From assembly GCF_018350175.1 (NCBI RefSeq), contig NC_058368.1, positions 111,168,001 through 111,232,000 on the forward strand: a stretch of DNA of 64,000 bases, written 5' to 3'. This stretch comes from Felis catus. Lineage: Eukaryota. Below the pieces are notes generated by a model that was not told where the DNA came from, did no database searches, and saw only the letters and a list, made by a program, of their open reading frames with translations. A program made the position numbers and the translations under genes. Each line of letters opens with the position of its first letter. Position 1 is the first letter of the stretch. Of this stretch, positions 5,350 through 9,500 are shown piece after piece.

Positions 5350-5860
5350 CCTTACCCAGTCGTGCTAGCAGATGTTCTCGAAAGTGAAGTCCCCGCATCC
5401 TACGCGCTCCCCGCCACCCCAACGTCCCTCTCTCCTAGGCTCTGAGGGCTGCCCGCCGCCCCGCCCCTGCCGCTCGAACGCCTCTCCCTCATAGGCCAGA
5501 GCTATCCGTGGTGCCCGGCCCCCGCCGCCTGAACGCGGCTCCCTCATAGGCCGGAGCTCTCCCCACAGTCCCGCTCCGCGCACTGGTCCCGCCCCTGCGT
5601 CCATTTAAAGAGTCTTCACACATACCACCCATTCCCCTCCTTGCTGAGTGGCTTGTTTTGTGCGATGCTCCGTAGCTGCTCGTTTCCGCCCACGGCGCGG
5701 ACTTCTTTAGGTAGAGGGACTTTTGGCCGCCTCGCCGGACCCAGGCGACAGAGAAAAGAGCCAACGTGCGTGTGCTCCCTAGTGAGACCTCCAGAGGGAA
5801 GGGCAGCAGGCCGAGACCCGCACAGAACAGATTTGTACGTCCCCTCAGGTAGCCTGACGC
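5350..5860 (+). promoter_or_regulatory. Orphan CpG-rich promoter: GC boxes, duplicated module, TATA-like ATTTAAA (5603-5609), Inr CCATTCC (5629-5635)
   Basis: Local CpG density far above flanks; TATA-like element 28 nt upstream of a YYANWYY initiator. Confidence 0.65.
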
Positions 5861-5914
5861 CTTTTCTTAGGACATCCCCCAATTCCTTGTCCCTAAATCA
5901 AAGCCTTAACTGCC

Positions 5915-6077
5915 CTAGTGGTTCCTCGCCTATTTTGGTTCACGAACTTATTTGAGACCCTGATGCAAACTATCGTTTTCGCAGAAGAATATGCCCACAC
6001 AATTGAGCACGAGGTTCTGCATCAAATTTCAAGAGGTTCAGCTCATTCTGGTAAGTCAGCAACTCCATGTTAGGACT
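5915..6077. mobile_element. Degenerate hAT-Charlie-like MITE (Charlie4z-like, from memory)
   Basis: agtggtt...ttttggttcacg...tttgaga..ctgatg..aactat...cagaa.aat..gc.cacac...tgcat.aaatttcaagaggttca pattern. Confidence 0.5.
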
Positions 6078-6079
6078 TG

Positions 6080-6244
6080 AGGCGCCTGGGTGGCTCAGTC
6101 GGTTAAGCTCCGACTTCGGCTCAGGTCATAATTTCACAGTTAGTGAGTTCAAGCCCCGCACCTCAGGTCATGATTTCCCAGTTAAGTTCAAAGCCGGGGT
6201 CGGTTCTCTCAGAGCTTAGAGCCTGCTTTAGATTCTGTGCCTCC

Positions 6245-6299
<55 letters not shown>

Positions 6300-6655
6300 T
6301 CAAAAAATAAAAAGACCTAGCCTGCCCCGAACACTTTTGCCTTTTTGGGCATAAGCCAGGGGCTATATTTTGTACGTAAATGTACATTTTTAAATATATG
6401 GCTACCATTTGTTGAGTGTTTAGTACATTTTTGCAGTACATTTTCTTAATTTGTTTAAAATGTATATTTACTTTTGAGAGACAGTGCCCGAGTGGGGGAG
6501 GGGCAGAGAGAGGGAGACATAGAATCTGAAGTAGGCTCCAGGCTCTGAGCTGTCAGCACAGAGCCTAAGGTGGCCTTCAAACTCACAAACCATGAGAACT
6601 CATGAGCCATGAGATACCTGAGCCAAAGGCAAATGCTTAACCCCTCAGGTGCTCC
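6080..6655. mobile_element. Two SINECs: + copy ~6080-6312 with an internal duplication and (CT)n; - copy ~6453-6655
   Basis: SINEC heads and tails; 27-nt direct repeat around the second copy. Confidence 0.88.
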
Positions 6656-6889
6656 ATTTTTGCAGTACATTTTCTTAATTTATCCTTCTAACAACTTCTG
6701 GAGGTGGGAATTGTAATCTCCACCTGGAATTAAAAAGGTTAAGTCATTTGTTAATGCTAAAAAGAGAATTAATGGTGTTAAAACTCAGATCCCAGGAATA
6801 AAATTTAGGCCTTTCTGTATTCCTCCCATATTGAGAGAGGACAAGTGTTTGACTTTCCTCTTTCTGTTGCAACATAACTGAAGCATATC

Positions 6890-7590
6890 AGATGGTAGCT
6901 ACTATTGTGGGTATAGAGGTGTTGAATCACTGTGTTGTACACCTGAAACTAACCTAACATTGTGCATCAACTATCGATCAATCAATCCGAAGCATAGGAC
7001 CCACTCCCAAAGCTAACCGTGGTTCATCATGCAGTTATTCACAAGTAAGGCACTAGTCCTGTTACCCTACTGTGATGTCTAAACCCCTTCCTGTGCCAAA
7101 CTGTCTTAACAAAATGTGCTTCCTCAGCTAAAGTTAAATGTTTTCTGTCTTCTTGTAAATTACACTAATTTACTTAGTCTAGAGAATCTTTATAACAAAA
7201 CAGGGTGGCTAGAGGCAATGTTTTCCGAGTCCAGGAATTTATTTTTACAGAGATGTCACAGACGTGTCTCAGAGGTGACAGAATTTTATTTGGGTCTTGA
7301 AGGTGAAGAATTGGGATAAGGCAAGTGTGTCACTCCAAGTGAAAGGAATGTAGGCCAGAGGGGGGCCAGGTGTGGGGCATAAAGTGGATTAAGAGGTACA
7401 AACTTCGAATTATATAATAATTAAATCACAGAGATGAAAAGTACAGCATGGAGAATATAGTAAATAATATAATAATGTATGGTGACAGATGGTGACTAAA
7501 CTGTGGGGAGCATGAAGTAATGTATAGAATTGTCAAATCAGTATCTTGTACACCTGAAACTAATATCACATCCTGTGTCAACTGTACTTC
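6890..7590 (+). mobile_element. Two short L1 3'-end fragments (~6890-6990 with TSD gaagcata; ~7350-7590)
   Basis: Both contain the L1 3'-terminal motif tgtacacctgaaactaa. Confidence 0.75.
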
Positions 7591-7599
7591 CATTTTGTT

Positions 7600-9500
7600 C
7601 ATTAAATGTTTATTTTTGAGAGGGCAAGTGGGGGAGGGGCTGGAAGAGGGGACAGAGGATCAGAAGCAGGCTGTTTGCTGCCAGCAGCAAGCCCGATGTG
7701 GGGCTTGAACCCATAAATCGAGATCATGACCTGAGCTGAAGTAGGAGGCTAAACTGACTAAGCCACCCAGGTGCCCCCAGTTTGTTTTTTAAGTGAAGTG
7801 CCTAGAATAGACAAAAGTCACCTTGCTTTTCTCCAAACTGCAGTCAATCTGGGATGGCTTCCCAATCAAGATATAGGTCTAGACAGACTTCAACCCCAAC
7901 CCAAAGGCTAGGAGAACCCTAAAAATGGTTCTGTCACTTAGTAATGTTTGTAGTCTCTGGAGTTTCTGAAATTTTGCTAATCCCAGATGAAATGGGACTA
8001 TAATTCCACTACTGAGTTCACCTTTAGTTCCTTTTTTGCTCTCTCTCCCTGTCCTCCTGTACTTCACCTCTAATGATTTCTTCCTCTTTTTTACTTTTAC
8101 AGCCATGAAATGTTTTTGACTAGAGGAATGTTTTACCCATTAACCCAAGCCCTTGGAATACAGTCAAGAAGGAAAGCCCTTCACTTCCTTTTTGCAACGT
8201 AAAGAGCTTGTTTTTAGTGGCATATTGCCATCATTGAAATCAGTGACTTTAATAAACATTTTAAGTTGTTTGTTATGATGCCCCACATCGAAATCCACAT
8301 TCTAAAGCAAGGGTTACTTTGTTTACCAAGTAACAGCCAGAATATTATTGATCCCTGAGGTCTAATTTTTTCTTTCTTTCTTTTTAATTTACTTATTTTG
8401 AGAGAGAGGAAGAGAGAATCCCACGCATACTCCATGCTGAGCCCGGCATGGGGCTCAAATCCATGAACCTTGAGATCATGACCTGAGCCGAAACCAAGAG
8501 CCTGTTGCTTAACCGACTGAGCCACCTAGGTGCCCCCCTTTATTTATTTTTTTAAAGTTTAATCTCTGTACACAACATGGGGCTCGAACTTACAACCTCG
8601 AGATCAAGAATCACATGCTCTTTGAACCAGCCAGGTGCCCCCTTCATGTCTAATTTTTTTTTTAATTCTTTTTTTTAATGTTTATTTATTTTTGAGACAG
8701 AGACAGAGCATGAATTGGGGAGGGTCAGAGAGAGAGAGAGAGAGACACAGAATCTGAAGCAGGCTCCAGGCCCGACACGGGGCTGCAATTCACGGACCGT
8801 GAGATCATGACCTGAGCCGAAGTCGGATGCTTAACCGACTGAGCCACCCAGGCACCCCTAATTTTTTTTTTAAGTTTATTTAGAGACCAAGAGTGTGCAC
8901 GTGTGTGCATACATAGGGAAGGGGCAGAGAGAATCTCAAGCAGGCTTCACACGGGGATCCATCTCACAAACCATGAGATCATGACCTGAGCAGAAATCAA
9001 AAGTCAGGCACTGAACCCACTGAGCCACCTAGGCATCTCTGATGTCTAATGTTAAATTGAGGGAAGAGGCTTTGTAAATATAGGCCCTGACCATGGTTAA
9101 TGAACTGAATTCCAGTTGAACCTGGTATAAGGGATGCCACAGAAACAGGGCCTTTTCTTGGGACCTTTGTTTTACAGCTTTAGGACTTATTTTTAGTTAC
9201 CGGGTTTTTAAGCAATGTCTTACCTTTTTTTTTTTTAAGTTTATTTGAGAGAGCTTGAGAATGCATGCATGCATGCGAGCTGGGGAGGGACAGAGAGGAA
9301 GGTGGAGAGAATCCCAAGCAGGCTTCCCACTGTCAGCACAGAGCCCAGCGCAGGGCTAGTTCACACTATGAGATCATGACCTGAACCAAAGAGTCAGAGG
9401 CTTAACCGACTGAGCCACCCAGGCACCCTGAGCATGGAACTCTTGATCTTGGGGTCATGGGTTTGAGCCTCACATTGGGGACAGAGTTTACTTAAAAAAA
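7600..9500. mobile_element. SINEC cluster (~7600-7778, 8380-8537, 8545-8642, 8660-8858, 8865-9040, 9225-9428 on -; ~9430-9500 on +)
   Basis: Repeated gagatcatgacctgagc...gagccacccaggcaccc motifs. Confidence 0.88.

What the first reader, a model, noticed from the sequence alone, without database searches (positions are those of the whole stretch)
5631..8275. Candidate unannotated multi-exon gene from an orphan CpG promoter, tail-to-tail with SAR1B
Seen, all on the + strand: TATA-like ATTTAAA at -28 and a perfect Inr (CC-A5631-TTCC). Exon chain: donor TAG|GTAGAG (5710); exon 5985-6050 (gttttcgcag| ... CTG|GTAAGT); donor CAA|GTAAGG (7044); exon 7251-7320 (atttttacag| ... AAG|GCAAGT); terminal exon from 8103 preceded by branch point ctctaat (8068-8074) and a long pyrimidine tract, ending in AATAAA (8251-8256) and a GT-rich element. 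Inference: a compact spliced Pol II unit ending ~1.5 kb from the distal SAR1B poly(A) site. I do not recognise it as any known gene at this locus. Short exons and a pyrimidine-rich start recall lncRNA or small-RNA host genes.
Basis: partly seen in the sequence, partly recalled or inferred. Interest (0 to 1): 0.72.

Follow-up and report, generated by a model that had tools for sequence, protein, structure and literature searches.

The report
Three-exon cat lncRNA beside SAR1B
A small spliced, probably non-coding RNA gene does start at this CpG island next to SAR1B in a cat-family genome; it has three exons, not the four or five proposed, and is an ordinary kind of gene.

Summary
A spliced + strand transcript is supported, but with a different exon chain. 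Contig break points in 2 of 2 laid contig runs (two studies; 'RNA' is the tool's guess) fit junctions 5848>5985 and 6050>8103, both GT..AG. They do not fit donor 5710 or the exons at 6998-7044 and 7251-7320. The junctions are inferred from piece ends and depth arithmetic; no joint row lists them. Coverage starts at 5619 or 5670 and, in one run, ends at 8275, 19 nt after AATAAA. Model: about 5620-5848, 5985-6050, 8103-8275 (about 460 nt), ending about 1.5 kb from SAR1B's distal poly(A) signal. Two raw-read runs show almost nothing, so expression is restricted or low. There is no intronic snoRNA. The first AUG opens an 88-codon ORF (71 of 3000 shuffles do as well). Its exon-1 part has no homologue in collections that hold felid proteins. 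Verdict: most likely an orphan-CpG-island lincRNA, a known kind. A young microprotein gene is not excluded (about 12%).

The parts
5330..5990 (.). CpG island, the promoter of the unit
   Evidence: GC 0.60, CpG o/e 0.82, 46 CpG in 661 nt; no copy elsewhere in the window
5458..5562 (+). 55-bp tandem duplication (1.9 copies) in the upstream island, with GC-box hexamers at 5456 and 5461
   Evidence: TRF score 154, 84% matches; motif scan
5589..5636 (+). Core promoter candidates: GC box 5589, TATA-like ATTTAAA 5603-5609, Inr-type A at 5618 and 5631
   Evidence: Motif scan with recalled consensus patterns. Zero contig depth over 5150-5581; coverage starts at 5619 (X4) and 5670 (X8). The start site itself is not mapped.
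5619..5848 (+). Exon 1 (5' end approximate), ending at the donor after 5848
   Evidence: Pieces 5619-5848 and 5670-5848, next piece from 5819, in both contig runs; predicted for junction 5848>5985
5849..5984 (+). Intron 1, 136 nt, GT..AG, weak donor, often retained
   Evidence: Piece 5819-6011 (193 nt) in both runs. Left-over depth implies a 57-nt junction piece of depth about 18 (X8) and about 4.5 (X4), against intron depth 14.9 and 16.1.
5985..6050 (+). Exon 2, 66 nt, frame-preserving
   Evidence: X4 piece 5982-6050; X8 98-nt record laid at 5982-6049 with 30 letters left over
6051..8102 (+). Intron 2, 2052 nt, GT..AG, holding three SINE copies (about 6067-6313, 6426-6642, 7590-7803) and two related non-SINE repeat pieces (6911-6972, 7433-7583)
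   Evidence: Self-BLAST. Intron pieces end at 8131 in both runs. Family names (carnivore SINE, L1 3' ends) are recalled, not from a library.
8103..8275 (+). Terminal exon, 173 nt
   Evidence: X8 piece 8102-8275, depth 22.9. The left-over depth in bin 8066-8173 (28.3 over 30 letters) equals the depth of the 98-nt record (28.4). This piece is missing in X4.
8251..8275 (+). AATAAA at 8251-8256, GT-rich stretch, cleavage near 8275
   Evidence: X8 piece ends at 8275; zero depth over 8282-8370 in all four runs; no A-rich run downstream that could prime oligo-dT
5665..8119 (+). Spliced first-AUG ORF of 88 codons (AUG 5665, stop 8117-8119 in the last exon); translation not shown
   Evidence: No homologue of the exon-1 part or of the 96-aa intron-retained form.
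9787..9792 (-). Distal AATAAA of SAR1B (neighbour, convergent)
   Evidence: Motif; SAR1B exon identity; use of this site not tested with reads

Best explanation
A stand-alone long intergenic non-coding RNA gene driven by an orphan CpG-island promoter. In some tissues the island (GC boxes, a TATA-like element, two Inr-type sites) recruits Pol II near 5618-5631 (inferred; the start is not mapped). The RNA is spliced 5848>5985 (weak donor, intron often retained) and 6050>8103 (best donor and acceptor of the region), and cleaved near 8275, giving about 460 nt (supported by contig structure). It stops about 1.5 kb short of SAR1B's distal poly(A) signal, so the mature RNAs do not overlap. Most likely the island is the element that matters (a promoter that may also act as a local enhancer) and the RNA is its low-level by-product. 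Any peptide from the first AUG is then incidental and unselected (inferred).
For: Piece ends in X4 and X8 (two studies) are reproduced exactly by a k=31 graph simulation of the three-exon model: lengths 230, 193 and 69 in X4; 179, 193, 98 and 174 in X8; ends at 8131. The outer ends 5619, 5670 and 8275 were inputs, and the junctions were read from these breaks, so the independent checks are these: both junctions are GT..AG on + (1534 of 200000 random joints are; about 6e-5 for two), and left-over bin depths balance on both sides of each junction. No protein homologue was found, while a control exon found felid SEC24A at 100% identity. ORF GC3 is 0.49, below GC1 and GC2. Arg 13.6% and Lys 2.3% is the composition PMC12667400 links to CpG islands (passages). 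PMC2944787 reports promoter activity at 42% of human orphan islands, often tissue-restricted, and expects non-coding products (passages).
Against: No joint row lists either junction; table 5 was filled by SINE cross-matches, with 486 rows hidden. X4 and X8 are only guessed to be RNA, and no DNA run was laid as a control. The terminal-exon piece is absent in X4. Only 4 of the 24 listed runs were laid, and the two raw-read runs show essentially nothing on the exons: X24 has zero depth over 5474-6013, an upper bound of about 0.5 RPKM. The 88-codon first-AUG ORF is longer than in most shuffles (71 of 3000) and has a frame-preserving middle exon and a last-exon stop, as a coding gene would. The terminal exon folds better than shuffles (z -2.68, 2 of 200; one of two exons tested). 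Conservation and chromatin state were not testable.
Confidence: 0.68

Rival explanations
1. A young (de novo) protein-coding gene for an 88-aa, 9.8-kDa basic, hydrophilic microprotein, with a 66-aa form when exon 2 is skipped.
For: The ORF opens at the first AUG of the RNA, with G at -3. It crosses both junctions, exon 2 is 66 nt, and the stop lies in the last exon, which by established rules avoids nonsense-mediated decay. A first-AUG ORF of 88 codons or more occurs in 71 of 3000 per-exon dinucleotide shuffles, and a longest ORF that long in 86 of 3000. Arg-rich and Lys-poor like translated eORFs.
Against: No relative of the exon-1 part among proteins of 33-107 or 108-2000 residues, none among 1.84 billion representatives, a best Atlas score of 0.75 and no Pfam hit, although felid proteins are held. 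No codon-position bias. pI 9.8 and 5 of 12 CGN Arg codons fall short of the eORF profile. Intron 1 is often retained, which ends the frame at an intronic stop. About 3 in 100 random RNAs of this make-up carry such an ORF. The spliced 88-aa form itself was not searched.
Confidence: 0.12
2. A cis regulator of SAR1B 3'-end formation: convergent transcription or a shared terminator limits SAR1B read-through.
For: Convergent arrangement, with 1512 nt between 8275 and the minus-strand AATAAA at 9787. The signal at 8248-8256 reads ATTAAA on the minus strand and AATAAA on the plus strand.
Against: Zero depth over 8282-8370 in all four runs, so no stable overlap or read-through was seen. The longest matches of the RNA to the rest of the window are 15-17 nt. 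Tail-to-tail neighbours are common (own knowledge).
Confidence: 0.07
3. The first reader's chain (5710>5985, 6050>6998 or 7251, 7320>8103) is the main isoform in tissues not examined.
For: The sites exist; 7044 ranks 3 of 157 donors and 7320 is a consensus-like GC donor. Contigs drop rare variants, and only two contig runs were laid.
Against: 10 of its 12 predicted internal break points were not seen. The merge at 8102/8131 needs an upstream exon sharing one letter (6050), whereas 7320 would give 8101/8130. The merge at 5982/6011 needs three shared letters (5848), whereas 5710 would give 5983/6012.
Confidence: 0.05
4. The joined forms are DNA (a processed copy elsewhere in the genome, or deletions), not splicing at this locus.
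For: X4 and X8 are only guessed to be RNA. No DNA run was laid, the count of joined forms in other runs was not given, and no genome is held for this window.
Against: Both joints have GT..AG ends. The listed exon and junction pieces show 0 other letters against the locus. Coverage starts at the promoter and stops at the poly(A) site, and the spliced share differs between runs (about 55% against 22% for intron 1). A processed copy would itself prove an earlier spliced RNA.
Confidence: 0.04
5. A snoRNA or other small-RNA host gene.
For: Short exons, weak coding signal, and a pyrimidine run after 5631.
Against: No Rfam match at gathering score in the region. At E<=5 only 4 hits, of 18.8-23.1 bits against cut-offs of 60-100. 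One box C motif in intron 2, with no box D 50-150 nt downstream. No pile-up in non-repeat intron sequence.
Confidence: 0.02

Closest known systems
Orphan CpG-island promoters with novel non-coding transcripts (Illingworth et al. 2010, PMC2944787; passages read)
   Same: An intergenic island of promoter-like CpG density away from known start sites, RNA starting inside it, and expression in some runs but not others.
   Different: Methylation, H3K4me3 and Pol II were not measured here. Here a complete spliced and apparently polyadenylated exon structure is inferred.
Long intergenic non-coding RNA (lincRNA), convergent and downstream of a coding gene (class definition recalled)
   Same: Over 200 nt, few exons, canonical introns, a poly(A) signal, low or restricted expression, inefficient splicing, no protein homologue.
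   Different: The exons lie outside the repeats detected by self-BLAST (no repeat library was available). The RNA carries a first-AUG ORF longer than in most shuffles.
eORFs: translated Arg-rich ORFs in human enhancer RNAs (Vlasov et al. 2025, PMC12667400; passages read)
   Same: A CpG-island-derived ORF with Arg 13.6% and Lys 2.3%, and no homologue found.
   Different: pI 9.8 (the ten largest eORFs exceed 11.5); CGN Arg codons 5 of 12 (over 70% in 7 of those 10); only 88 aa; a three-exon RNA; translation not shown.
snoRNA host genes of the GAS5/SNHG type (recalled)
   Same: Short exons and little coding signal.
   Different: No intronic snoRNA found; the proposed start base is A, not the C of a TOP tract.

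Membership tests
lincRNA | Transcript longer than 200 nt | tested here: met
   457-469 nt spliced model
lincRNA | Pol II processing: canonical introns and a poly(A)-signal-defined 3' end | tested here: met
   Two GT..AG junctions inferred from contig breaks in 2 of 2 contig runs; end at 8275 in 1 of 2. The poly(A) tail itself was not seen.
lincRNA | No overlap with a protein-coding gene | tested here: met
   1512 nt to the nearest minus-strand AATAAA of SAR1B's 3' region; SAR1B's true end was not mapped with reads
lincRNA | Does not encode a functional protein | tested here: inconclusive
   No homologue, but the 88-codon ORF is matched in only 71 of 3000 shuffles; no ribosome or proteomic data
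Orphan CpG-island promoter | CpG-island composition (GC over 0.5, CpG o/e over 0.6, over 500 nt; thresholds recalled) | tested here: met
   0.60, 0.82, 661 nt
Orphan CpG-island promoter | Transcription starts within the island | tested here: met
   Contig depth is 0 over 5150-5581 and begins at 5619 or 5670; no cap data
Orphan CpG-island promoter | Unmethylated, H3K4me3-marked | not testable with these tools
   No chromatin or methylation data
Orphan CpG-island promoter | Remote from any annotated start site | tested here: inconclusive
   No annotated protein matches and none of the passages or listings seen names a gene here. Cat RNA annotation was not available; an automatic non-coding model may exist.
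snoRNA host gene | Intronic box C/D or H/ACA RNA | tested here: not met
   (H/ACA tested only through Rfam)
snoRNA host gene | 5' TOP start (C followed by pyrimidines) | tested here: inconclusive
   Both Inr-type candidates start with A; the true start is unmapped
De novo microprotein gene | No detectable homologues | tested here: met
   with control; exon-1 part and intron-retained form only
De novo microprotein gene | Translation shown by ribosome profiling or peptides | not testable with these tools
   No such data
De novo microprotein gene | ORF intact and under selection in relatives, non-coding in outgroups | not testable with these tools
   No eukaryote genomes held
eORF (PMC12667400) | Arg 10% or more with low Lys | tested here: met
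   13.6% and 2.3%
eORF (PMC12667400) | pI above 10-11.5 and CGN-biased Arg codons | tested here: not met
   pI 9.78; 5 of 12 CGN

The most novel reading that the evidence does not exclude
A felid- or carnivore-restricted de novo gene: an orphan CpG island that gained splice sites and a poly(A) signal now makes a tissue-restricted three-exon mRNA for an 88-aa basic microprotein with no relative in the protein collections searched.
Probability: 0.12. Interest if true: 0.6.

Novelty: new member of a known kind. Interest (0 to 1): 0.27.

Why it matters
As a lincRNA it adds one corrected gene model to a felid locus. About half of mammalian CpG islands are orphans and many are promoters (PMC2944787), so a specialist would not be surprised. 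It would matter more if the 88-codon ORF is translated and kept by selection: it would be a compact, testable case of de novo gene birth from a CpG island in carnivores. It also shows that a sequence-only reader found a real transcript, with its 3' end right to the base in the one run that shows it, but got the internal exons partly wrong.

Tried and rejected
Donor 5710 and exons 6998-7044 and 7251-7320 were rejected as main-isoform features in the two contig runs. Small-RNA host: Rfam at gathering score and at E<=5 and a box C/D scan found nothing credible. A repeat origin of the island: no copy in the window; no repeat library or whole genome was available, so a low-copy LTR origin is not formally excluded. 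Internal oligo-dT priming at 8275: no A-run downstream. A structured exon 1: z +0.49. A CTCF-type motif at 5204-5217: 41 of 100 shuffles give at least one match window-wide, so it is not counted as evidence. Protein searches with the exon-1 ORF part or the intron-retained ORF were blank. No structure was predicted: there was no alignment, and the spliced form was not submitted. X21 shows 24 + 75 + 52 letters in three bins, which sums to one 150-nt read and would fit a 5848>8103 exon skip on the + strand; a single inferred read is a hint only. Literature: searches for SAR1B+JADE2+lncRNA (2 papers), lnc-SAR1B/lnc-JADE2/antisense names (3 holders, 2 listed, unrelated by title), SAR1B+Felis catus and SAR1B+JADE2 (15 listed) gave no title or abstract on such a gene. 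Gene lists read as passages in PMC7655849, PMC9104502 and PMC10261125 go from JADE2 to SAR1B with nothing between, but they list mainly coding genes. Supplement searches of PMC6128939, PMC10367386 and PMC12789764 had 0 occurrences even of SAR1B, so they are uninformative; tables not held may bear on annotation. Earlier findings of the scan: none on this locus.
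Full report
Setting. The window is from a felid: the SEC24A first exon matches Felis catus and Acinonyx jubatus proteins at 100% over the coding part of the query. SAR1B lies on the minus strand; one exon is 44 of 44 identical to SAR1b chains in the PDB. JADE2 is not in the part of the window I read; that it lies to the left is inferred from gene order in cattle, mouse, sheep and human lists.

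Observation. The island at 5330-5990 (GC 0.60, CpG o/e 0.82, 46 CpG) is one of three strong islands in the window. It has no copy elsewhere in the window and holds a 55-bp tandem duplication. Sequence strength is uneven. With a recalled donor matrix, 6050 ranks 1, 7044 ranks 3, 5848 ranks 14 and 5710 ranks 28 of 157 GT sites. Acceptor 8103 ranks 1 of 203 AG sites by pyrimidine tract, while 6998 ranks 90.

RNA evidence. The run search listed 24 runs: 14 RNA or RNA-guess holders from 8 studies (share 0.35-0.73), 6 probable DNA holders (0.95-0.96) and 4 raw-read runs added by species label. I laid 4 of the 24: two raw-read runs (X24 oligo-dT bulk, X21 single-cell) and two contig runs from different studies (X4, X8). 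The joint table was filled by SINE cross-matches (486 rows hidden), so no row names a junction of this unit. The piece table is informative, because contigs break where paths diverge and overlap by 30 letters. X4 has pieces 5619-5848, 5819-6011, 5982-6050, 6021-6103 and 7721-8131. X8 has 5670-5848, 5819-6011, a 98-nt record laid at 5982-6049 with 30 letters left over, 6968-7612, 7682-8131 and 8102-8275.

Reading the breaks. A junction 5848>5985 predicts breaks at 5848, 5819, 6011 and 5982; a junction 6050>8103 predicts 6050, 6021, 8131 and 8102. A graph simulation of the three-exon model returns the observed lengths: 230, 193 and 69 for X4; 179, 193, 98 and 174 for X8. The outer ends were inputs and the junctions were read off the breaks, so this shows consistency, not prediction. 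Three checks are independent. First, both junctions are GT..AG on the + strand; 1534 of 200000 random joints are, about 6e-5 for two. Second, the depth not explained by listed pieces balances: in X8, 18.3 over 27 letters left of intron 1 and 18.2 over 30 letters right of it, and 28.3 over 30 letters in bin 8066-8173 against 28.4 for the 98-nt record; in X4 the values are 4.6, 4.4 and 3.7. Pieces run unbroken across 5710 (both runs) and across 7044, 7251 and 7320 (X8).

Limits. X4 and X8 are only guessed to be RNA, and no DNA run was laid. Contigs drop rare forms and give no strand; the strand comes from the splice ends. The terminal-exon piece is missing in X4, although its merge at 8131 implies one; the tool warns that a filter leaves records out. 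X24 has zero depth over 5474-6013 and only about 20 letters in the terminal exon, an upper bound near 0.5 RPKM. X21 has about 150 letters in three bins, which would fit one exon-skipping read. Expression is therefore low or tissue-restricted; the tissue is unknown.

Coding potential. In the revised RNA (469 nt from 5619) the first AUG, at 5665, opens 88 codons that cross both junctions and stop at 8117-8119 in the last exon. Skipping exon 2 gives 66 codons; retaining intron 1 gives 96, ending in the intron. A first-AUG ORF this long arises in 71 of 3000 per-exon dinucleotide shuffles. The product would be 9.8 kDa, pI 9.8, Arg 13.6%, Lys 2.3%, with no hydrophobic segment. GC at third positions (0.49) is below first and second. 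The 61-aa exon-1 part found nothing at E<=1 among proteins of 33-107 or 108-2000 residues. The 96-aa form found nothing among 1.84 billion representatives, in the ESM Atlas above 0.75 or in Pfam. A control exon from the same window found 39 proteins, including felid SEC24A, so an annotated felid product would probably have been seen. The spliced 88-aa form was not searched as such.

Small RNAs. Rfam gives no match at gathering score in the region and 4 weak hits far below cut-off. There is no box C/D pair in either intron. Exon 1 is not unusually structured (z +0.49); the terminal exon is somewhat so (z -2.68, 2 of 200 shuffles), which is one of two tests and unexplained.

How it most likely works. 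Supported by data: RNA starts within the island; intron 1 is spliced inefficiently (junction against intron depth about 55% in X8 and 22% in X4); intron 2 is spliced; the RNA ends near 8275 and does not reach SAR1B's 3' region. Inferred: GC boxes with a TATA-like element and two Inr-type sites (5618, 5631) recruit Pol II in a subset of tissues. The island is the element that matters, and the RNA is a by-product with no selected peptide (0.68).

Comparison with what is known. It works like the orphan CpG-island promoters of PMC2944787: about half of islands are remote from annotated promoters, 42% of human orphans show promoter activity, and non-coding products are expected (passages). Its ORF shares Arg richness with the eORFs of PMC12667400, but not their pI or codon bias (passages). 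Four searches on this locus showed no paper on such a gene, by listing; three supplement searches were uninformative. Whether cat annotation already carries a non-coding model here could not be checked.

Verdict. The feature is real, with a corrected three-exon structure. It is a new member of a known kind, interest 0.27. The open point worth a test is whether the 88-codon ORF is translated and conserved.

Noticed in passing
window 1704-1810 (-): Full-length U6 copy (Rfam 114.6 bits) with a long poly(A) tail and an apparent target-site duplication of about 8 bp: it looks like a young L1-mediated U6 retrocopy.
   Followed up: partly
window 8248-8256: The poly(A) signal is two-way: AATAAA on + (8251) overlaps ATTAAA on - (8248). 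It could also end SAR1B read-through; no read-through depth was seen over 8282-8370.
   Followed up: partly
window 5204-5217 (-): The only CTCF-type motif match in the window at 1 mismatch lies about 400 bp upstream of the start; chance gives at least one in 41 of 100 shuffles.
   Followed up: partly
window 6400-6800: A SINE (about 6426-6642) with a target-site duplication of about 22 bp (6431-6452 and 6660-6681) interrupts sequence that resembles a MIR element (recalled, no library). This would make intron 2 old mammalian DNA.
   Followed up: no
window 8103-8275 (+): The terminal exon folds more stably than shuffles (z -2.68, 2 of 200), with the AATAAA inside a 3' hairpin arm.
   Followed up: no
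window 6968-8131: X8 has depth 4-8 over the 3' half of intron 2 but none over 6662-6877: possibly 3' bias of intron-retaining RNA, or a filter hole; unexplained.
   Followed up: no
window 46890-46988 (+) and 37300-38100: SEC24A first coding exon within the island at 46.2-47.3 kb; the island at 37.4-38.1 kb is presumably the SAR1B promoter (inferred, not tested).
   Followed up: partly
window 30930-31001, 53353-53437, 58673-58745 (-): Three weak Rfam tRNA matches (32.8-38.4 bits); the two alignments shown look like tRNA-derived SINE heads, not tRNA genes.
   Followed up: no
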